Below, piece after piece: positions 1 through 7,273 of a stretch of DNA of 25,736 bases. The stretch comes from a virus (Duplodnaviria; Caudoviricetes): the IMG/VR virus record IMGVR_UViG_3300035676_000530, positions 1 to 25,736 of that record; one strand, 5' to 3'. The notes under the pieces are model-generated. The model was not told where the DNA came from and did no database searches. It worked only from the letters and a program-made list of their open reading frames with translations. The position numbers and the translations under genes are program-made. Each line of letters begins with the position of its first letter. Positions within the stretch are counted from its first letter, which is position 1.

Positions 1-156
1 CAGGGGCGAGAGCCTCCGCCCACGATGAACGAGTTATCGTAACCGACACTTTCGCCCATTCTACGATGCGGCGCACGGGCGCTCTTCGTTTAAGTTACCA
101 TGCCTCCGGTAACCCCCTCTTTGGCCTCCTTTCTGGCTATCTGCCAGACGAGTACC
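1..156 (-). ncRNA. structured RNA directly downstream of tRNA-Thr, cut by the window edge; family unassigned
   Basis: Starts 2 nt after tRNA-Thr. Hairpins CTGGC-AGATA-GCCAG, GTTACC..GGTAAC, CGCCCGT..ATGGGCG and GGGCG..CGCCC. GC-rich, no credible ORF. Confidence 0.55.
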
Positions 157-158
157 AA

Positions 159-230
159 AGCCACCACTGAGATTTGAACTCAGGACCCCCATCTTACCAA
201 GATGGTGCACTACCACTGTGCTATGGCGGC
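159..230 (-). tRNA. tRNA-Thr(GGT)
   Basis: Cloverleaf GCCGCCA..TGGTGGC. Anticodon arm CCATC-TTGGTAA-GATGG. T-loop TTCAAAT. No encoded CCA. Confidence 0.96.
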
Positions 231-233
231 AAA

Positions 234-305
234 TCGGGATGGCAGGGATTGAACCTGCGACTTCTTGCTCCCAAAGCAAGCATTCTACCGCTGAACTACA
301 TCCCG
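234..305 (-). tRNA. tRNA-Pro(TGG)
   Basis: CGGGATG..CATCCCG acceptor. Anticodon arm CTTGC-TTTGGGA-GCAAG. T-arm GCAGG-TTCAATC-CCTGC. Confidence 0.96.
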
Positions 306-308
306 AGT

Positions 309-466
309 GACCCCCAGGTTTGAGCTTTCGTGAAGAGGCTTAGGGGGTGTGCAGAGGGCGATCAACTCCTCCGGCCCAGGAAGGGTAACCCTGACCAGTG
401 CAGGAACCCAGAACTGGGACTTAGGGGCGAGATAAATCTCGCGAATGCCGCTGCAATGCAGTGGCA
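309..466 (-). ncRNA. series of hairpin and multiloop RNA modules upstream of tRNA-Pro
   Basis: Stems ACCCCC..GGGGGT, CTGGTC..GGCCGG enclosing AGGG-TTA-CCCT, CCCAG..CTGGG and GCGAGA-TTTA-TCTCGC. Boundaries uncertain. Confidence 0.4.
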
Positions 467-469
467 ATA

Positions 470-558
470 GGGAGTAGGCGGAGTTGCACCGCCATTGCTG
501 AAGAACGGAATCGAACCGCCTCTGACGCCGTCGCGCCCACCATCCAAGGTGCACTCCC
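470..558 (-). ncRNA. tRNA-like RNA with two T-arms and no anticodon loop
   Basis: 7-bp acceptor-like stem GGGAGTG/TACTCCC. Arms CACC-TTGGAT-GGTG, GGCGC-GACG-GCGTC, GGCGG-TTCGATT-CCGTT and GGCGG-TGCAACT-CCGCC. Confidence 0.65.
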
Positions 559-653
559 AGAAGGCCCCATTTAACACGTGAGACGCCTCAAGGACGAAAC
601 AGAGGTGGGGGCTCGTTTGCCGGTTTTCAACCGACCCCTGGAATGAAATCCAG

Positions 654-808
654 GATGCATCGTTCTCCCTCGGGCGATCCGAAGAACGCGGGACGGTGAT
701 TGCAGACCGCATTTGGAACGATGGCAACTGCCCGCCATCGCGACCCGGCAGTGGGTCAGCCCGATGCCGAAGCAGAGCGGGAACGCGAACCAGCAAGCTG
801 GCCGCACC
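654..808 (-). ncRNA. probable manA-motif RNA (multi-hairpin with kissing loops)
   Basis: Closing helix GGTGC/GCATC. Adjacent hairpins GACCC-ACTGCC-GGGTC and CGATGGC-GGGCAGTT-GCCATCG have complementary loops (ACTGCC/GGCAGT). Also a cUUCGg hairpin and a CGTTCTTC/GGAGAACG stem. The structure is seen directly; the manA name is from recollection of cyanophage tRNA-associated manA RNAs. Confidence 0.6.
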
Positions 809-897
809 ACACCGACAGAGCAGTGTGGGTGGTTGTTGGGCGAAGGAATAAACCCCCCTTTCGTTTAACGCTCGCTGACGGTGAAGCGAGAGCCCAG

Positions 898-980
898 TGA
901 GGCAGGTGCGGTATCTCCAGAAACAACCGACTTACATCGTTGATTCCGGTTCCCATGCTCCTTTTGCTTTCCTTACCTCA
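898..980 (-). ncRNA. small structured RNA directly downstream of tRNA-Asn
   Basis: Terminal stem TGAGGTA/TGCCTCA. Inner hairpin CCGGAA-CAAC-GAT-GTAA-GTC-GTTG-TTCTGG with a GNRA loop. Purine-rich internal loop. Confidence 0.55.
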
Positions 981-982
981 AA

Positions 983-1054
983 CTGGCGTAGTAGGATTCG
1001 AACCTACGACCGGACGGTTAACAGCCGTCAGCTCTACCGCTGAGCTATACGCCA
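983..1054 (-). tRNA. tRNA-Asn(GTT)
   Basis: TGGCGTA/TACGCCA acceptor. Anticodon arm GACGG-CTGTTAA-CCGTC. T-arm GTAGG-TTCGAAT-CCTAC. Confidence 0.97.
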
Positions 1055-1060
1055 TTGATA

Positions 1061-1146
1061 GCAGGAGGGATTTCTATGTGCGGACAGAATCACCTTTCAC
1101 ATTTCCAAGCTGGGTATCAACCTGGCAGCGGTGTTGCACTTCCTGC
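1061..1146 (-). ncRNA. tRNA-sized small RNA between tRNA-Leu and tRNA-Asn
   Basis: 86 nt closed by GCAGGA/TCCTGC. Begins 2 nt after tRNA-Leu and ends 6 nt before tRNA-Asn. No cloverleaf. Confidence 0.55.
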
Positions 1147-1148
1147 AA

Positions 1149-1229
1149 TGCCCAAGAGAGGACTTGAACCTCCATGCACAAGGCACATGATCCTAAGTCA
1201 TGCGTGTATACCAATTTCACCACTTGGGC
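1149..1229 (-). tRNA. tRNA-Leu(TAG)
   Basis: GCCCAAG/CTTGGGC acceptor. Anticodon arm CATGA-CTTAGGA-TCATG. Long variable arm. T-arm GGAGG-TTCAAGT-CCTCT. Confidence 0.96.
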
Positions 1230-1253
1230 AGTAGTTTCAATTTTCAAGGTTCA

Positions 1254-1333
1254 GGTTGAGGGCTTGGATCCACACGAGAGAATCTCCAAGCTAGAGACCC
1301 GGAGGTGCGAAACCAACCGGACCTCTCTCAACC
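1254..1333 (-). ncRNA. three-way-junction RNA at the 5' end of the tRNA operon
   Basis: Closing stem GGTTGAG/CTCAACC. Arms AGAGGTCCGG/CCGGGTCTCT and GCTTGGA/TCCAAGC. Begins about 8 nt below the -10 box. Confidence 0.6.
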
Positions 1334-1341
1334 ACCTTTAC

Positions 1342-1404
1342 AGTATAGCCTTTTTAGGCGTCCCGGTAAAGGGCGGGAAACCGGCTATTCGGGTCGGTAT
1401 ACCG
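1342..1404 (-). promoter_or_regulatory. tRNA operon promoter with two CGG-N4-CCG boxes
   Basis: TTTACC-17 bp-TATACT (1342-1370). Boxes at 1374-1383 and 1395-1404. Confidence 0.7.
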
Positions 1405-1546
1405 TCGGGTGAGTTTTACACCACTCACGAAATTGTTGTTTCATTTCTTCCCAAGATTTCTCGCAACTACTCATTTTTAAAGAGTCACAAGCTTGAGGAA
1501 TGTTCCATTTTGCTCGAAAGAGCATATCAAACGGATCTGGTTTCAC
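1385..1546 (-). CDS. small hypothetical protein, 53 aa (not in ORF track)
   Basis: Hand-translated MKPDPFDMLFRAKWNIPQAC...REWCKTHPTVYRPE. GTG start overlaps the upstream TGA (GTGA). Resembles a common cyanophage small protein. Confidence 0.7.
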   Translation of the reverse strand: MKPDPFDMLFRAKWNIPQACDSLKMSSCEKSWEEMKQQFREWCKTHPTVYRPE

Positions 1547-1800
1547 CAATTATTCTCAAAATATTCAAATCGGGGCCAAGTATCTTCGGTCCAAATAATT
1601 GCCTTAACCATATCTGCTCGAGCTTTCATTTTGGAAGGAGCACTTCCGGAGTGCATATGTGTGCCCCAACTCGTACCATCTTCCCAAACAAGCATCCAGT
1701 GCCATTCTTGTTTTCTCTCGCACCACCAAACCTGGCCACTTGAATTCCGTTCATCAATACGAACGGTTGTCATGTATCTGCTTCCAGAACCTTGAATCAT
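1543..1800 (-). CDS. Trp-rich hypothetical protein
   Basis: ORF in the operon chain. ATG at 1800 overlaps the upstream stop (ATGA). Confidence 0.65.
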   Translation of the reverse strand: MIQGSGSRYMTTVRIDERNSSGQVWWCERKQEWHWMLVWEDGTSWGTHMHSGSAPSKMKARADMVKAIIWTEDTWPRFEYFENNW

Positions 1801-2333
1801 TGCAACAATTGTTGAGCTTGGCAATAATATGCTTGATAAGAAGGCATGCGTTCAACATAAACTTTGTTGTCCGCAATAATCTGACCACTTACTTTCCAAA
1901 TCCAGGCACGAACATCATCCAGTAAGATTCGCGCTGGAGGTTCTTTATGGTCAACAGGAGACGAAGGAGAAGGAATCAGTTTAACTCCGTTACCGAGATA
2001 CACAGTTTTTGCGATTGTCATCGCTCTTTCCATGTGATATCCATCGGTTACTACATAAAGCTCTTTGGCACCCATACCAAGAATGCGGTCATAAGTGCAT
2101 GTAAAATTAGTAACCGTATCCCATGCAAGATAATCAAGATAAAATCTGTCTTGACTAATTCCCGCTTCTTTGCAAGAGTCAATGCAAAGACTGGGATTTT
2201 CTACTGTGGAAAACAACAAAAATGCATCAGGCATTTGTGTTGCTAGTTCAATAGCTTTTGGAGTCCTGCCAGAGGGATTACCTCCAAGTTCGAGAATAAC
2301 TTTATCAAACGTCATATTCTTTATTTTGCTCAA
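1797..2333 (-). CDS. YdcF/DUF218 (SanA/ElyC-like) family protein
   Basis: Motifs ILELGG, R..KAIEL, AWDTVTNF and VVTDGYHMERA. Confidence 0.85.
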   Translation of the reverse strand: MSKIKNMTFDKVILELGGNPSGRTPKAIELATQMPDAFLLFSTVENPSLCIDSCKEAGISQDRFYLDYLAWDTVTNFTCTYDRILGMGAKELYVVTDGYHMERAMTIAKTVYLGNGVKLIPSPSSPVDHKEPPARILLDDVRAWIWKVSGQIIADNKVYVERMPSYQAYYCQAQQLLQ

Positions 2334-2578
2334 GATGCAACAGTCTGAGTTCTTCTTTTAGACGTCGATTTTCTTCTGCTAGGAGTGCTAATTTCTTCAG
2401 AAGTGTCTTTTCCGACTTCTCGCAAAATGAGGGTGTTGGGTAGTGCATCGAATTCAAGTTCTGTTCCTTCTTGCCACCCCATGGCGTCCAAAAGTTCATC
2501 AGGGAATTCCAAAACGAGATTACCTTCTTCATCGGTACCACACGTGGTAGTATATACAATTTTATCAGGGCCAGGCAT
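2330..2578 (-). CDS. AbrB/MazE/SpoVT-like DNA-binding protein
   Basis: DEEGNLVLEFPDELLDAMGWQEGTELEF swapped-hairpin pattern. Confidence 0.7.
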   Translation of the reverse strand: MPGPDKIVYTTTCGTDEEGNLVLEFPDELLDAMGWQEGTELEFDALPNTLILREVGKDTSEEISTPSRRKSTSKRRTQTVAS

Positions 2579-2756
2579 TGTTTTCGGTTAAAATAAGTTT
2601 TCTAGTGGGGTGAATCATGAGGAGGTGATTTCGAAGTTCATTTAACTTGCTTCTATTTTTAGAAGAAGTAGGTAATTCTTCAACTAAAATTTTTTCCTCA
2701 TTTACAATTTCGTAAAGTTGTATAACTCCCGGAGGAATTTTTCTAGGAGGGATCAC
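2565..2756 (-). CDS. hypothetical protein
   Basis: ORF coupled by GTGA overlap within the operon. Confidence 0.6.
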   Translation of the reverse strand: MIPPRKIPPGVIQLYEIVNEEKILVEELPTSSKNRSKLNELRNHLLMIHPTRKLILTENNAWP

Positions 2757-2914
2757 TGTACTTGTTCTTTAGCTAGGATTAAAACCTCATCTAATTCCTC
2801 TCCTTCTTCGTGCAAAGAACGAGTGGCCGCAGCAACGGAGAAGAACAACCGTCCCTGTTCGCTCCAACCGAAGCCGTTCCAATATTGACCATGAGCATTG
2901 ACAACCAGGAACAT
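2753..2914 (-). CDS. small hypothetical protein, 53 aa (not in ORF track)
   Basis: Hand-translated MFLVVNAHGQYWNGFGWSEQGRLFFSVAAATRSLHEEGEELDEVLILAKEQVQ. Its stop overlaps the next start. Confidence 0.65.
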   Translation of the reverse strand: MFLVVNAHGQYWNGFGWSEQGRLFFSVAAATRSLHEEGEELDEVLILAKEQVQ

Positions 2915-2936
2915 TCTAGCAGGAGGCGCTGCATCT

Positions 2937-2963
2937 AATTTAGTTCATAGCCCCGTGGGTAAA
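2937..2963 (-). promoter_or_regulatory. putative promoter, 15-bp spacer class
   Basis: TTTACC-15-TAAATT immediately after the upstream stop codon. Confidence 0.4.
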
Positions 2964-3398
2964 CTATGCTAAATATGACTGAAGCAGATACATATCAGTT
3001 AGAACTACACTCGACATTGATTGCATTTGATTGCCAATTGCAACGAGGCGAGGATCTTGCTTATTTTTCTCGCAGAAAGCGTAATATAAAGAAATGGTCC
3101 CTTCCAAAGCCATTAAGTAGTCGAGTGCTAAAGCAGCCAACGTATGACAATCATATTCATCCATACTGATGCCTGGACCTGAAAAAAGTTTAAAGTCAGG
3201 ATTCATTCCACAGGCTCGAAGTTGTTCGACGAGAGAATCCATAAGTTCTCCAAGGTCATTGTAAACTCTTTCGAAGAGCAGATGCGCTTCATAAAAATTG
3301 CTTCCTCTTACGTTCCAATGACAGAGGCGGGATACAATAGTCGCGTCGTTTAAATACTTGACGACTTTATTCGATAAAATTGAAAACTCTTCGTTCAT
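2964..3398 (-). CDS. dps: Dps/ferritin-like protein
   Basis: HWNVRGSNFYEAHLLFERVY..DSLVEQLRA matches the Dps ferroxidase signature. Confidence 0.85.
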   Translation of the reverse strand: MNEEFSILSNKVVKYLNDATIVSRLCHWNVRGSNFYEAHLLFERVYNDLGELMDSLVEQLRACGMNPDFKLFSGPGISMDEYDCHTLAALALDYLMALEGTISLYYAFCEKNKQDPRLVAIGNQMQSMSSVVLTDMYLLQSYLA

Positions 3399-3730
3399 AA
3401 TTTTCCCCGCTGATCACGGCGCATTCTTCGTTGCAATTTTTTAGCGACTGCTTCTTGAACTTTACGTTGTTTGTCCGCTATTTGATTCGCTTTTTGCTGA
3501 GCTTTGGAGATGCGTTGTTGAAATAACTTTTCTCTCTTCTCTGCTGGAGTTGATACAGGTAGACCCGTATCACACTCGACATCCATCGATAATCCGGCTC
3601 CGAGCGAAGTGACAGCGAAATCGTATACTTTACTCTGTTCAACGAAATCAGAAAACTCAATATTAGAGTTTTCGGCTGCCATTTGATAAGCGGTTAAAAT
3701 AGCATCTTTTGAGAAACTATCAGTTCTCAT
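3395..3730 (-). CDS. hypothetical protein with acidic leader and basic coiled-coil tail
   Basis: Clean ORF. GGGTAAAA lies 23 nt upstream. Shares VYDFA with 10913-11305. Confidence 0.75.
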   Translation of the reverse strand: MRTDSFSKDAILTAYQMAAENSNIEFSDFVEQSKVYDFAVTSLGAGLSMDVECDTGLPVSTPAEKREKLFQQRISKAQQKANQIADKQRKVQEAVAKKLQRRMRRDQRGKL

Positions 3731-3902
3731 CTTCTTTTTGCAGTCTTTTCGGTTTTACCCCTGAGTTCCTACATTGATGAACATGACTCCGAAGAAGTTC
3801 TACGCTAAACATTTCGACTGTGCCTTCGTCTGTCCAGCCTACCAGTCCCCCGCAAACAGGGCATCTAAATTTGGATTTTATATACTCTAGGTTATGATCC
3901 AT
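3720..3902 (-). CDS. small zinc-finger-like protein
   Basis: CPVC...HVHQC. Confidence 0.6.
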   Translation of the reverse strand: MDHNLEYIKSKFRCPVCGGLVGWTDEGTVEMFSVELLRSHVHQCRNSGVKPKRLQKEDEN

Positions 3903-3916
3903 GGAGCTACCACATA

Positions 3917-4234
3917 TCAGTCTAATGTGGTTTTAGAATACAATTCAACTGAAATAGAATCCCCATTTTGTTGAACTGCAAGGAATTCGGTATCGGGGTT
4001 GTAATTGGCGAGAGACTCAATCAGTTTTTCACTGAAACATTCTTTTTGAACTGCCGGAGGTAAAGAGTCTATAAACTGAAATACTTCTTTCCAAGATAAA
4101 AATTGACAAGACTTTGAGTCATAAAAATGACACCCGCGCTCTCCGACATGTTCTTCAAAGCTTTTTACCAAGTGCCCCATTGATATCTCCGCAAGGTACA
4201 AGTGCTCCGCGAATACGCATTTTTCGAACAACAC
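3917..4234 (-). CDS. hypothetical protein (start uncertain)
   Basis: ORF in the operon. C-terminal YNPDTEFLAV motif. Confidence 0.65.
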   Translation of the reverse strand: MLFEKCVFAEHLYLAEISMGHLVKSFEEHVGERGCHFYDSKSCQFLSWKEVFQFIDSLPPAVQKECFSEKLIESLANYNPDTEFLAVQQNGDSISVELYSKTTLD

Positions 4235-4340
4235 GAGGAGCTGAAATCATCGGAGCGTTGCGAGTACTGGCATCTTCAGGATTTAATTCTTCAGATCCTT
4301 CGCATGAAGTGCTTATGTCAAAATTAGATTCGGAATCCAT
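4155..4340 (-). CDS. hypothetical protein
   Basis: ATG overlaps the upstream TAA (TAATG). Confidence 0.45.
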   Translation of the reverse strand: MDSESNFDISTSCEGSEELNPEDASTRNAPMISAPRVVRKMRIRGALVPCGDINGALGKKL

Positions 4341-5038
4341 TAGTACTGTATTTGCCAGGTTCCATCGGATTTCTCCGAGATTACGAACGGAAATTGTTTC
4401 GCTTGTTCGTTAGGTGGAGTGTCGTAAAAAATCCCTTTAAACTGTTTACCATCTTCGGAAAGCAGATAGTTATTACTGGAATTCGGTGGGTTACCCTCCG
4501 TATCAGTTACTTCAGTAACTCCATCGAGATAAACAGAAGCAATTACTTTCTTTAGGAAAGTTTCCATCTTTTCGCTTAAAGCGTCAGTATTCTCTCGGTT
4601 TGGAGTTACGGATGCTGTGGCAGATTCTTCGAGTGACCCCTCGGGAGTTTCTACAATTTCTTCTTCGGAAATTACTTCATCAGCAAAATCAAATTCGCTG
4701 AAATCTATATCTGGTTCAATTTCATACTGAAGATGTCCAACCGGAACTTCGAGAACAGATTCCGGTTCTGGCCATTGAGATGGATTAACACTCAATAAAG
4801 CGTCTACAACTTCGCAATACTCTTCATAGGTCGCCTCAGGTCCCAAATCAACCCTGTCGATAACTTCCAACATGGAAATTTTGCCGTCCGAGAAGTCGTG
4901 ACGTAAAGCTTCCAAATAAGATTTGGGTATGCTGGAAAGATCTCCTCGAGAGGTTTCCCACAGAAGATCTGCAACTCGGCGAGCACTCTCGCAAAAAGCC
5001 GCATCTTTTCCAAATTTCGGATTGCGATCGTAAGACAT
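4340..5038 (-). CDS. acidic hypothetical protein
   Basis: 232-aa ORF with an upstream promoter motif. Internal DFSEFDFADE. Confidence 0.8.
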   Translation of the reverse strand: MSYDRNPKFGKDAAFCESARRVADLLWETSRGDLSSIPKSYLEALRHDFSDGKISMLEVIDRVDLGPEATYEEYCEVVDALLSVNPSQWPEPESVLEVPVGHLQYEIEPDIDFSEFDFADEVISEEEIVETPEGSLEESATASVTPNRENTDALSEKMETFLKKVIASVYLDGVTEVTDTEGNPPNSSNNYLLSEDGKQFKGIFYDTPPNEQAKQFPFVISEKSDGTWQIQY

Positions 5039-5061
5039 TGCGAATAGCAGCTCTAGACGCT

Positions 5062-5088
5062 ATTATACCCGTCTAAAAGTTTCGTAAA
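5062..5088 (-). promoter_or_regulatory. putative promoter, 15-bp spacer class
   Basis: TTTACG-12-GGGTATAAT. Confidence 0.6.
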
Positions 5089-6570
5089 TTAACGGCTAAT
5101 CTCTTGCCAATCTAGAGAACCGTAAGCTATTTGGTTATCATTCGCACCCGCTACAGCTAAAACATAGGGTGAAGCTGTTCCCGTCAAACCGTTTCTTTCA
5201 TATTGAAAAGAAAATAACTCAGTGCTTGATATATCTATAGATGACGTGCTTTGATTAGATGCAGTAAAAAATCCAGAATAAACTACTTCGCCGCCAGTGA
5301 AAGAAGTAATATCGAGAGAATACTCTACTGCAGCGGAAGCGTTAACTGTTGACCAGGTGCCTCCGGTAAGTGTGGGATTTTTAACAAGTACCCATCTGTA
5401 GGTTTCGTTATTGCCACCACCTATAACAGAAGCTCCTGATAAGATAGCAACTGCATTTAGTTGCGTAGAACGTAATCGAGAGGCAACCAAGGGATAATAA
5501 GTGCCTTTATTGGCCAATGTCTTTGGTGTTGTAATTGGCGTTGCAACACTATATTGTTGCCCGAGAATTTGATAACCGCCTTCAGATATAACAGTTGAAC
5601 AAATTTGTTTCAAAGTACTTGCTGACCCAACATTCCCTGTATTTTCAATCTCATACATTAGAGGCAACGACGCAGTTGTAATGTATGTTGAGGTAATTAA
5701 ATTAGCATGATTAAATTTGTGGCATATAATAAATTGACCATCGATAACAAAACCCATACGAACGGTTCCAACTCCGAGCCATTCCATATCTATAAACAGA
5801 ATTTGAGCCTTCGTAGGATCTAACGTTATCCCTGAGGGTCCAGTACCATTCAAAGGATCAACATTCCAATTGGCTTGAAGAACAGGAATATTTACAATCG
5901 AACCGCTTACAGCCGATCTCTCAACAAAGGAAAGTGTATTATTATCCAACGATAAATAATATCCATTACTTGCGTCGTAATAACCTACACGCTGTCTTAA
6001 TCCTGTTTGCTGCGGGGCCAACACGAAAGTTGACATTACAAGTAAAGATTTCCCTGGTTGATAGGAAAAAATTTTGTTTGTTTGTCTTGCAACAGAGGAT
6101 CCTAGGGCACCAGTAACGTTAAGGTCCATTAAACCCTGTGCGGCGTTAAATGTCGCTGTGCCACCTGTAGCTGTCGCAGTTGACCATTTACCGTTATCTG
6201 TATAACGATAACTAGAGTCAAACATTGTATAAGGATTTGATGTTCGAAGACGTCCGAAAGCATCTCCTGTGGATCCTCCAAACCCTTCAATAACTACGGG
6301 AGTTTGAGAAGAATCCTCATATAGTAATATTTGCAGATCGTCTGTAGATTCACAAAAATCAGCGGTGTTTTGCTCTAATGTTAAAACTGTATTTCCATTC
6401 ACGATTTGGTAAGTTACGCCTACTTCGTGATTGTCTGGTAAATATAAAGGGATATTACGTGTTACGTTGTATATAGGGCCAATAATGTCAAAATCAATGA
6501 CGCCAGTTAGCGTGATAGTGCCCTCATATGCAGCACCTGGGGTGAACACGTAATCTGTAAATACGTACAT
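5089..6570 (-). CDS. probable virion structural protein (beta-rich, tail-associated or lectin-like)
   Basis: 493 aa rich in T/S/G/N. DAFGRLRTSNPYTMFDS and QILFIDMEWLGVGTVRMGF blocks typical of a widespread aquatic-phage protein. GGGTAAAA 20 nt upstream. Confidence 0.65.
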   Translation of the reverse strand: MYVFTDYVFTPGAAYEGTITLTGVIDFDIIGPIYNVTRNIPLYLPDNHEVGVTYQIVNGNTVLTLEQNTADFCESTDDLQILLYEDSSQTPVVIEGFGGSTGDAFGRLRTSNPYTMFDSSYRYTDNGKWSTATATGGTATFNAAQGLMDLNVTGALGSSVARQTNKIFSYQPGKSLLVMSTFVLAPQQTGLRQRVGYYDASNGYYLSLDNNTLSFVERSAVSGSIVNIPVLQANWNVDPLNGTGPSGITLDPTKAQILFIDMEWLGVGTVRMGFVIDGQFIICHKFNHANLITSTYITTASLPLMYEIENTGNVGSASTLKQICSTVISEGGYQILGQQYSVATPITTPKTLANKGTYYPLVASRLRSTQLNAVAILSGASVIGGGNNETYRWVLVKNPTLTGGTWSTVNASAAVEYSLDITSFTGGEVVYSGFFTASNQSTSSIDISSTELFSFQYERNGLTGTASPYVLAVAGANDNQIAYGSLDWQEISR

Positions 6571-6599
6571 GATTCGACTTAAAAATAAGTTTTACCCAG

Positions 6600-6821
6600 T
6601 TAGAGCTCAGGTTTTTCAAATTTAGGGTTCCTGGTCCCACCTGTTAACCAAATTTTTTCAATCTTAATTCCCCTGTCCCAATAATAATCAAATATGCGAA
6701 CCGAACTGTATTCTTTCACTATGTCAACAGTTCCGTTAGCTCTACGTACAAATTTGCAGTCACATGTTAATTTTTTAGGATTGATCTCATCGAGATCTAC
6801 ATTTTCACATAGAATCTGCAT
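6600..6821 (-). CDS. hypothetical protein, cyanophage-conserved type
   Basis: IFDYYWD..GTRNPK motif. AGGTAAAA 24 nt upstream. Confidence 0.7.
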   Translation of the reverse strand: MQILCENVDLDEINPKKLTCDCKFVRRANGTVDIVKEYSSVRIFDYYWDRGIKIEKIWLTGGTRNPKFEKPEL

Positions 6822-6901: not shown

Positions 6902-7000
6902 TCACACAATACCTTGGGGCAAATTTGTGATAAACTGATTTTTAATTCGTTTGCTGCGTTTACGGACTGCAGCTAACCATACAAGAAAAGGATGTTTCAC
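6902..7000 (-). CDS. 32-aa basic microprotein (not in ORF track)
   Basis: MKHPFLVWLAAVRKRSKRIKNQFITNLPQGIV. GTGA overlap with the DUF4278-type gene. Ends just before the terminator. Confidence 0.5.
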   Translation of the reverse strand: MKHPFLVWLAAVRKRSKRIKNQFITNLPQGIV

Positions 7001-7149
7001 AGCTTGCACTCCTTTACTCCACGGTACTTAAGTCCACGATAAGTAAACCAGAGACTTGCGTTGCAATGAAACTGATTCCACCAAGCAAGAAAATCTTTTT
7101 GGTGTTGTTCGGTGTCGTATTTGACACCACGATACGTCGCAATAGACAT
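6997..7149 (-). CDS. DUF4278-type small protein, 50 aa (not in ORF track)
   Basis: MSIATYRGVKYDTEQHQKDFLAWWNQFHCNASLWFTYRGLKYRGVKECKL with repeated TYRG.KY. GGAG Shine-Dalgarno. Sits under the glutamine riboswitch. Confidence 0.8.
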   Translation of the reverse strand: MSIATYRGVKYDTEQHQKDFLAWWNQFHCNASLWFTYRGLKYRGVKECKL

Positions 7150-7158
7150 AGGATTCTC

Positions 7159-7273
7159 CGAAATGAATGAACATTTCGCGTTCCTTCAGTCGGCGTTTGC
7201 GTTCGCTATTTGCAAATAACGAATGAACGATCCGTTCCGCGTCGGCTTACTTCCGTCCCTTTCGGGATGAACG
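7159..7273 (-). promoter_or_regulatory. tandem glnA-type glutamine riboswitch
   Basis: Two aptamers: CGTTCATCCC-GAAA-GGGACGGAAGTAAGCCGACGCGGAACG (7233-7273) and CGTTCATTCG..CGAACGCAAACGCCGACTGAAGGAACG (7179-7229). Then hairpin CGAAATG/CATTTCG abutting the SD. Confidence 0.85.

What the first reader, a model, noticed from the sequence alone, without database searches (positions are those of the whole stretch)
1..1340. tRNA operon packed with at least eight non-tRNA structured RNA modules
Seen: only about 300 of 1340 nt are tRNA. The rest is GC-rich and splits into self-closing modules (1254-1333, 1061-1146, 898-980, 837-896, 654-808, 470-558, 309-466, 1-156). Several begin just 2 nt after a tRNA 3' end and end in terminal stems. 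Known: T4 species 1/2 RNAs, manA, GOLLD and ROOL RNAs sit in phage tRNA clusters. Inference: one promoter drives a polycistronic RNA that host RNase P/Z cut into a set of small stable RNAs, most of no family I recognise. They could act as decoys for anti-phage nucleases or RNA-binding proteins, or assemble with each other.
Basis: partly seen in the sequence, partly recalled or inferred. Interest (0 to 1): 0.85.

Follow-up and report, generated by a model that had tools for sequence, protein, structure and literature searches.

The report
Phage array of orphan antitoxin-like RNAs
A lake virus of cyanobacteria packs the gaps between its tRNA genes with about fifteen small, exchangeable folded RNA modules, and some of them copy RNAs that bacteria keep beside RNA-cutting toxin genes, so the array likely acts as a set of antidotes and decoys against the host's self-destruct defences.

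Summary
Window 1-1340 (minus strand) is a cyanophage tRNA operon (Leu, Asn, Pro, Thr) whose spacers hold about 15 modules. Ten module families show compensatory changes, and the modules recur shuffled, nested or cleanly deleted in other lake phages, so this is not one large RNA. This scan found such chains and the two-T-arm tRNA mimic before on other DNA.

New here: modules with cellular homes. Window 310-347 is Rfam abiF, shown in Clostridioides to be a trans-acting RNA antitoxin; the phage records searched lack its toxin. Window 758-784, plus the stem at 352-422, copy the first two hairpins of an uncatalogued three-hairpin RNA. In bacteria that RNA sits directly downstream of a MazE-less MazF-fold gene (63 of 120 cellular hits, 4 of 125 viral), has its own predicted promoter and covaries strongly.

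Best reading: an array of orphan RNA antitoxins and tRNA decoys for counter-defence. Nothing functional is tested. No cyanobacterial copy of either toxin was found, and most modules have no known partner.

The parts
1342..1370 (-). sigma-70-like promoter (TTTACC, 17 nt, TATACT), predicted start of the operon
   Evidence: consensus match only
1241..1333 (-). leader hairpin (1254-1333) and conserved leader motif at 1241-1252; resembles an rRNA-operon boxB/boxA antiterminator (resemblance recalled, not confirmed)
   Evidence: a like motif lies within 45 nt before a tRNA in 15 other printed phage leaders, each behind a hairpin of varying length; no full-length homolog by nhmmer; paper search did not find the motif
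1149..1229 (-). tRNA-Leu(TAG), no encoded CCA
1061..1146 (-). module B, three-way-junction RNA, starts 2 nt after tRNA-Leu
   Evidence: 14 unique sequences including the window; 8 of 23 predicted pairs change on both sides
983..1054 (-). tRNA-Asn(GTT)
898..980 (-). module C, conserved base with a variable tip, starts 2 nt after tRNA-Asn
   Evidence: 8 unique sequences; 2 of 13 pairs two-sided in the 6 aligned
837..896 (-). module D, stem-UUAAAC-stem junction; optional cassette
   Evidence: no nhmmer homolog; skipped by a joint 834-897 in RNA contigs and replaced in DNA contigs of relatives; similar layout by eye in L144, L168
785..835 (-). module E0, two hairpins, the second can carry an insert
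   Evidence: 15 unique sequences; 5 of 13 pairs two-sided in the 14 aligned
758..784 (-). module E1, bulged hairpin matching the consensus of hairpin 1 of the bacterial RNA downstream of MazF-fold genes
   Evidence: covariance model R1 of the bacterial RNA hits 694-789 at 34.4 bits, next best 7.2
715..757 (-). module E2, two hairpins with complementary loops (predicted kissing loop)
   Evidence: only 2 unique hits, covariation untested; skipped by a joint 709-757 in one RNA contig
655..712 (-). module E3, two hairpins with a possible pseudoknot
   Evidence: 8 unique sequences; 4 of 14 pairs two-sided
619..654 (-). module E4, two short hairpins
   Evidence: 2 unique sequences; weak
564..612 (-). 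module F, bulged stem with conserved CUUG loop
   Evidence: 16 unique sequences; 5 of 16 pairs two-sided
469..558 (-). module G, tRNA mimic: 7-bp acceptor stem, two short hairpins, two T-arms, no anticodon arm
   Evidence: 80% identical to an unannotated spacer between tRNA-Phe and tRNA-Ile of S-CREM1; 99.2% of cells paired, 7 of 26 pairs two-sided in 10 sequences
424..466 (-). module H1, two short hairpins
   Evidence: 2 unique sequences; weak
352..422 (-). module H2: AAGUCC...GGCC stem (hairpin 2 of the toxin-linked RNA) with an insert at 380-413 and a short third hairpin
   Evidence: the motif follows E1 directly in 35 of 77 phage loci and in bacteria; aligned insert family 5 of 15 pairs two-sided; model R1 scores it only 4.5 bits here
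310..347 (-). abiF RNA motif (Rfam RF03085), no AbiF gene seen
   Evidence: 42.3 bits, gathering 37; Abi_2 in 0 of 5 related phage records
234..305 (-). tRNA-Pro(TGG)
159..230 (-). tRNA-Thr(GGT)
124..156 (-). module J1, stem-loop with CAGAUAG loop that elsewhere sits in the anticodon position of tRNA-like elements
   Evidence: 16 unique sequences; 3 of 8 pairs two-sided in the 14 aligned; position in tRNA-like elements seen
1..118 (-). module J2, multi-stem junction with UUAAAY linker, also in S-CREM1; ends at the contig end
   Evidence: 6 unique sequences; 8 of 24 pairs two-sided

Best explanation
The region is a cyanophage tRNA operon whose spacers carry a shuffled array of small folded RNA modules, and the array likely works as a counter-defence toolkit: orphan copies of RNA antitoxins and tRNA-shaped decoys that would bind and silence host RNA-cutting defence toxins during infection. 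Shown: modularity, covariation, the abiF match, and the tight bacterial pairing of the E1/H2 RNA with a MazF-fold gene that the phage records searched lack. Inferred: (1) one promoter makes a long transcript that RNase P and RNase Z trim at the tRNAs and at module G, releasing module clusters; (2) the bacterial three-hairpin RNA is the antitoxin of a type III-like system with reversed gene order, made from its own promoter whose -35 box lies in the toxin's last codons; (3) the phage's abiF and E1/H2 neutralise the matching host toxins in trans; (4) the other modules do the same for partners not yet identified.
For: abiF at 310-347 passes Rfam's cut-off. abiF-motif RNA neutralises the AbiF HEPN toxin in cis and in trans by direct binding (bioRxiv 10.1101/2025.04.15.648962, passages; review PMC12737573, passages). 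Abi_2 was found in 0 of 5 related phage records, 2 of them complete. E1 hits have a PemK-family ORF ending within 150 nt upstream on the same strand in 63 of 120 cellular loci, against 4 of 125 viral loci. Starting from the protein instead: of 75 metagenomic loci with enough flank, 50 match hairpin 1 and 73 the hairpin-2 motif; the model finds the RNA behind 4 of 5 genes in a blind sample of 400 genomes and behind 5 of 6 plasmid genes. In 26 protein-first sequences 97.5% of cells pair and 14 of 22 pairs change on both sides (0 of 500 shuffles; slid controls 32-43%). TTGAC lies 28-45 nt before hairpin 1 in 109 of 121 loci, and a -35/-10 pair is present in 69 against 1 in a control stretch. No shared upstream gene: 41 of 158 loci have any same-strand ORF there, largest cluster 3; no MazE among 29 scanned. 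The protein models as a MazF fold (pLDDT 91.5), the fold of type III toxins (PMC5086642, passages). The toxin family is absent from 0 of 5 and 0 of 4 hits in phage records searched and from all 77 phage loci within 1.2 kb. Precedent: pseudo-ToxI of phage TE; S-CREM1 encodes protein antitoxins (PMC9964418, abstract and passages).
Against: No function was tested. No cyanobacterial copy of the MazF-fold gene or of AbiF was found. The named carriers are mainly Pseudomonadota, cyanobacterial genomes could not be reached, and the 'mazF1' of Synechococcus CB0101 reads as a PIN/VapC-type sequence by eye. The third-hairpin loop of the phage versions (UUGAUC, GAUGGCC, GGACG types) differs from the bacterial GAUUGCAA or GAUAACAA types. 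In this window E1 and H2 lie about 335 nt apart, and R1 scores H2 at only 4.5 bits. Only abiF and E1/H2 of about 15 modules have a cellular home. E1 also occurs without the toxin in 57 of 120 cellular hits, many of them chance matches inside ORFs but some not, and follows a -10 box in 47 of 81 viral copies, which also fits a 5' leader role. Most phage records searched for toxins, and this 25.7 kb window, are fragments.
Confidence: 0.55

Rival explanations
1. The modules are cis-acting transcription and stability elements (antiterminators, 5' protective hairpins, nuclease road-blocks) that help the phage make and keep its tRNA transcript; E1 would be such a leader in bacteria too.
For: E1 follows a TAnnnT box in 47 of 81 unique viral copies against 0 in a control position. 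A conserved leader motif precedes tRNA clusters. Several modules look pseudoknotted.
Against: The bacterial RNA lies downstream of the toxin gene and ends in its own terminator. In L349 and L390 it faces the gene from the opposite strand. Arrays occur in phages with no tRNA nearby. abiF works in trans.
Confidence: 0.2
2. The modules are stable small RNAs that bind host housekeeping proteins (translation, tRNA-processing or RNA-decay factors) to tune the infected cell, unrelated to defence toxins; abiF and E1 are minor passengers.
For: Module G has tRNA ends and two T-arms. Related clusters carry tmRNA, manA and wcaG. Most modules have no toxin-linked homolog.
Against: Module content and order vary between close relatives, with clean gains and losses, the pattern expected of arms-race cargo. 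Both modules with an identified cellular home are toxin-linked.
Confidence: 0.17
3. The 676-nt gap between tRNA-Asn and tRNA-Pro is one large ornate RNA of the GOLLD or ROOL kind.
For: Long, GC-rich, inside a tRNA cluster; z about -2.2 for the whole gap; RNA contigs cover 570-980 across several modules.
Against: No GOLLD or ROOL match at E up to 10. The module order differs across the loci mapped and tRNAs fall between modules. Whole modules are absent in near-identical relatives.
Confidence: 0.04
4. The units after tRNAs are self-cleaving ribozymes (theta/HDV-like, pistol, hammerhead) that free tRNA 3' ends.
For: Three modules start 2 nt behind a tRNA; theta ribozymes sit at phage tRNA 3' ends (PMC10879173, passages).
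Against: No ribozyme family at E up to 10. A home-made HDV-like descriptor, run without a positive control, and the hammerhead core found nothing. The modules also occur away from tRNA ends.
Confidence: 0.04

Closest known systems
AbiF type III-like toxin-antitoxin system with abiF RNA (Rfam RF03085; RCd22, AbiFr)
   Same: Window 310-347 scores above the Rfam cut-off; the motif is the antitoxin unit that binds the HEPN toxin in trans.
   Different: Single copy inside a tRNA operon with no AbiF gene in the related records searched; the reading here is counter-defence, not toxin control. A copy was noted in S-CREM1 without a role.
Type III TA systems ToxIN, CptIN, TenpIN, AbiQ
   Same: MazF/Kid-fold protein paired with a structured RNA and no protein antitoxin seen.
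   Different: The RNA is a single three-hairpin unit downstream of the gene with its own predicted promoter, not upstream tandem pseudoknot repeats before a terminator; no PADLOC match.
Pseudo-ToxI of phage TE (and RNA anti-CRISPRs, recalled)
   Same: Phage-borne RNA copy of a host defence RNA without its protein partner.
   Different: Here several unrelated RNA types are strung in one exchangeable array inside tRNA operons; activity untested.
Phage T4 rnaC/rnaD (species 1 and 2 RNAs)
   Same: Small non-tRNA RNAs of unknown job in a phage tRNA cluster.
   Different: No module model matches rnaC or rnaD; the only T4 hit under E 0.01 was G's T-arm on a tRNA.
manA and wcaG RNAs of cyanophages
   Same: In S-CREM1 manA lies between tRNA-Leu(TAG) and tRNA-Asn, where module B lies here.
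   Different: No Rfam match of B to manA, and the B model does not hit the S-CREM1 manA.
Candidate DNAVirus_248 (PMC10690425 supplement)
   Same: A viral candidate RNA linked to YifN/PemK genes.
   Different: 57 nt, listed as upstream of the start codon, Neisseria phages; the RNA here is about 85 nt and downstream. Its sequence was not readable, so overlap is not excluded.

Membership tests
abiF RNA (RF03085) | Score above the Rfam gathering threshold | tested here: met
   42.3 bits against 37
abiF RNA (RF03085) | Located upstream of an AbiF/Abi_2 gene | tested here: not met
   followed by tRNA-Pro; Abi_2 in 0 of 5 related records
abiF RNA (RF03085) | Binds and inhibits an AbiF toxin | not testable with these tools
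   needs a binding or rescue assay
Type III TA (bacterial source of E1/H2) | Protein of MazF/Kid fold | tested here: met
   PF02452; model and Foldseek hits to MazF at E about 1e-6, 11-23% identity
Type III TA (bacterial source of E1/H2) | No protein antitoxin gene; a conserved structured RNA beside the gene | tested here: met
   2 weak RHH and 3 HTH genes among 29 upstream ORFs are exceptions
Type III TA (bacterial source of E1/H2) | Antitoxin as upstream tandem repeats followed by a terminator, one promoter | tested here: not met
   single RNA downstream with its own predicted promoter and terminator; upstream regions were not scanned for repeats
Type III TA (bacterial source of E1/H2) | Toxic RNase neutralised by direct RNA binding | not testable with these tools
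   no assay possible
pemK RNA motif and other Rfam families (bacterial RNA) | Rfam match | tested here: not met
   20 cellular loci at E up to 1: no pemK hit; only weak hits below gathering over the RNA
tRNA (module G) | 7-bp acceptor stem and T-arm | tested here: met
tRNA (module G) | Anticodon arm with 7-nt loop; tRNA model match | tested here: not met
   no ARAGORN or Rfam call in the window; loops are 6 and 4 nt. ARAGORN does call some homologs Leu or Ser
GOLLD / ROOL large RNAs | Rfam match and fixed domain order | tested here: not met
Theta (HDV-like) ribozymes | Nested double pseudoknot starting at the tRNA 3' end with catalytic C | tested here: inconclusive
   no Rfam hit; descriptor negative but without a positive control
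T4 rnaC/rnaD | Sequence similarity | tested here: not met

The most novel reading that the evidence does not exclude
Phage tRNA-cluster spacers are an RNA-only anti-defence locus: a polycistronic, tRNA-punctuated array of stolen RNA antitoxins and tRNA decoys. Each orphan module would then point to an undiscovered RNA-regulated defence toxin in the host, and E1/H2 already reveals one: a widespread MazF-fold, reversed-order type III system with a three-hairpin antitoxin.
Probability: 0.4. Interest if true: 0.92.

Novelty: new variant of a known kind. Interest (0 to 1): 0.77.

Why it matters
Non-tRNA RNAs in phage tRNA clusters have lacked a function since the T4 species 1 and 2 RNAs. This locus gives two named, testable partners: AbiF, and an uncharacterised MazF-fold family with a conserved downstream RNA. 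If the reading holds, phages use arrays of RNA antidotes as they use anti-CRISPR clusters, a new type III-like toxin-antitoxin family exists across several bacterial phyla and prophages, and orphan phage RNA modules become baits for finding further defence systems.

Tried and rejected
Folding z-scores alone were not decisive. Relatives of the neighbouring DUF218 gene gave modules in only 2 of 62 loci. BLAST of 1-158 and of 740-800 against cultured phages found nothing. BLAST of 307-982 against plasmids gave 28 records, mostly short chance matches; the exceptions were E1 and abiF. B as a small manA: rejected. Ribozymes: no support, descriptor unvalidated. One large RNA: rejected. CB0101 mazF1 as the host toxin: rejected, it reads as a PIN-type sequence. 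Scans for B and E3 returned mostly chance matches, and the true hits lay in phage arrays. The boxA reading of the leader motif is recalled; the paper search did not confirm it. RNA runs: contigs from three studies cover parts of 570-980 at 96-100% identity with no cover over 1401-6720. The runs were chosen by this region and are contigs only, so this is a weak hint of expression, not evidence of level or ends. Ten paper searches showed no description of the MazF-plus-downstream-RNA pair or of orphan antitoxin arrays. The library lacks most subscription papers, and the alignment files of PMC10690425 could not be searched, so modules may be listed there unnamed.
Full report
Setting. The window is a 25.7 kb virus record; its ORF translations read as psbA, psbD, hli and nrdA/nrdB (recognised by eye), so a T4-like cyanophage. 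Runs that hold part of the region are wetland, lake and freshwater metagenomes. Positions 1-1340 hold four tRNA genes on the minus strand, 297 nt in all; the remaining 1043 nt are 56% GC against 43% elsewhere. A sigma-70-like promoter lies at 1370-1342. Rfam finds one non-tRNA family, abiF at 310-347 (42.3 bits, cut-off 37), and nothing else near its cut-off at E up to 10. Folding z-scores are modest and not strand-specific.

The modules are real and independent. Pattern scans of viral contigs and local nhmmer searches gave these numbers of unique sequences, window included: B 14, C 8, E0 15, E1 249, E2 2, E3 8, E4 2, F 16, G 13, H1 2, H2/insert 10, abiF-like 19, J1 16, J2 6; A and D only the window. 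In ten families, pairs with changes on both sides were B 8 of 23, C 2 of 13, E0 5 of 13, E3 4 of 14, F 5 of 16, G 8 of 27, insert 5 of 15, abiF-like 4 of 12, J1 3 of 8, J2 8 of 24, against fewer than 0.5 expected from other column pairs. Short or weak hits were dropped before aligning, and these structures were predicted from the same alignments, so the counts lean high. For G, a named structure on 10 sequences gave 99.2% of cells paired, 7 of 26 pairs two-sided and slid controls near 50%: a tRNA mimic with an acceptor stem, two T-arms and no anticodon arm, also present unannotated in S-CREM1. Module order differs from phage to phage, tRNAs fall between modules, and some arrays have no tRNA. 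Modules are nested in each other's stem tips. Near-identical relatives skip D (joint 834-897) or E2 (joint 709-757). This rules out one large RNA. Earlier notes of this scan describe the same kind of chain and the G family on other genomes.

Module A is the operon leader. A similar hairpin and the motif at 1241-1252 precede a tRNA in 15 other printed phage leaders. I recall this motif as the cyanobacterial rRNA boxA; a paper search did not confirm it.

First cellular link: abiF. In Clostridioides difficile an RNA with two abiF motifs neutralises the AbiF HEPN toxin in cis and in trans by direct binding (bioRxiv 10.1101/2025.04.15.648962, passages). A review describes the same for PbAbiF (PMC12737573, passages); I did not read the primary structure paper. 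Abi_2 was found in 0 of 5 related phage records, two of them complete. Earlier papers list the S-CREM1 copy without a role (PMC9964418 and PMC12197685, passages).

Second cellular link: E1 and H2. A scan of bacterial genomes with the E1 pattern returned 120 loci of an estimated 160. In many, E1 opens a conserved RNA: hairpin 1, an AAGUCC or AGAC stem, a third hairpin, then a terminator. Upstream lies a 140-residue PemK/MazF-family ORF. It ends within 150 nt on the same strand in 63 of 120 cellular loci (40 of the 120 had only about 300 nt of flank) but in 4 of 125 viral loci. Searching from the protein gave the same pairing. Of 80 metagenomic loci, 75 had enough flank (five of them duplicates); 50 matched hairpin 1, 73 the hairpin-2 motif and 45 the third loop. 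Of 69 unique viral loci, 64 had the hairpin-2 motif (the motif is short, chance about 0.3 by my estimate). A covariance model found the RNA behind 4 of 5 genes in a blind sample of 400 genomes, with a partial hit at the fifth, and behind 5 of 6 plasmid genes. A Vibrio prophage copy scored poorly but shows a divergent version by eye. On 26 protein-first sequences the structure had 97.5% of cells paired and 14 of 22 pairs two-sided, 0 of 500 shuffles as high, slid controls 32-43%. It has no Rfam match in 20 loci. Among 203 unique toxin loci, 121 had a recognisable hairpin 1; TTGAC lies 28-45 nt before it in 109, in most printed examples within the gene's last codons, and a full -35/-10 pair in 69 against 1 in a control stretch. 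In two loci the RNA faces the gene from the other strand. No shared upstream gene exists: 41 of 158 loci have an ORF there, largest cluster 3, and none of 29 of the 32 short ORFs scanned is MazE, though 2 are weak RHH and 3 HTH. The protein models confidently as a MazF fold, the fold of type III toxins, but known type III systems put repeated antitoxins upstream (PMC5086642, passages). I infer an uncatalogued type III-like pair with reversed order. The model of the bacterial RNA hits the window once, at 694-789 (34.4 bits, next 7.2); most of that score is E1. In other phages E1 runs straight into an AAGUCC stem (35 of 77 loci; none of the 77 has the toxin within 1.2 kb). Whole-record searches found the toxin in 0 of 5 and 0 of 4 phage records, mostly fragments.

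Mechanism. Shown: modularity, covariation, orphan status within the records searched, and the bacterial gene-RNA pairing. Inferred: one transcript is trimmed at tRNAs and at G by RNase P and Z (none of the tRNAs encodes CCA); released clusters present antitoxin folds that bind host RNases such as AbiF and the MazF-fold family; G and the J1 loop serve as decoys for tRNA-cutting nucleases. RNA mimicry by a phage has a precedent in pseudo-ToxI, and S-CREM1 encodes protein antitoxins.

Against. Nothing is assayed. I could not search cyanobacterial genomes; named carriers of the toxin are mainly Pseudomonadota; the CB0101 'mazF1' is unrelated by eye (PMC5498466, section 10 and supplement rows). Phage third-hairpin loops differ from the bacterial ones. 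In this window E1 and H2 are apart, and H2 scores only 4.5 bits. E1 follows a -10 box in 47 of 81 viral copies, which fits a copied small-RNA gene but also a leader element. About twelve modules have no partner. Expression evidence is contigs only.

Novelty. Ten paper searches showed no account of this gene-RNA pair or of orphan antitoxin arrays. PMC10690425 (passages and four searched supplement files) lists a 57-nt candidate upstream of YifN/PemK genes in Neisseria phages, probably a different element; its alignment files were unreadable, so overlap remains open. Verdict: a real array, a new variant of RNA-based counter-defence if the inference holds (0.55), with a separate and well-supported lead to a new bacterial toxin-RNA family.

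Noticed in passing
window 7175-7273 (-): Two tandem glutamine-riboswitch-like aptamers (32.9 and 24.6 bits, cut-off 35) upstream of the 50-aa ORF at 6997-7149; RNA contigs also touch this stretch.
   Followed up: partly
L364:2058-2620; L473-L632; L822-L827: Uncatalogued bacterial and prophage locus: a 140-aa MazF-fold gene with no MazE, followed by a covarying three-hairpin RNA with its own predicted promoter and terminator; at least 1514 proteins at E 1e-20. It deserves its own study.
   Followed up: yes
L828:1876-3180: Vibrio cyclitrophicus Vinavirales prophages carry this gene beside the repressor at the genome end, with a divergent RNA behind it.
   Followed up: partly
L075:1810-1990; L072:1820-1990; L074 after tRNA-His(atg): A further conserved, pseudoknot-like module chain that is absent from the window.
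   Followed up: no
L074, L079, L064: A tRNA-like element that ARAGORN calls His(ATG), with an odd anticodon loop, recurs in these arrays and is unannotated in S-CREM1.
   Followed up: no
L066:1506-1704 (-); L075:3873-4024: Permuted tmRNA genes beside the module arrays.
   Followed up: no
L118, L131, L144, L153 and similar: Contigs with no tRNA gene in the fetched stretch carry E1 plus F or D-like modules, so the arrays are not confined to tRNA operons.
   Followed up: partly
L140, L178, L351, L107: E1 hairpins without the toxin in prophage-like or proteobacterial contigs, some next to tRNA genes.
   Followed up: no
window 1797-2333, 2330-2578, 2964-3398 (-): Neighbouring genes: DUF218 protein, a small AbrB-like ORF (by eye; no Pfam hit) and a ferritin/Dps-like protein.
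   Followed up: partly
L634:1501-1543: An abiF-like stretch on a Piscirickettsia salmonis plasmid, followed by an IS6 transposase rather than an annotated AbiF gene.
   Followed up: no
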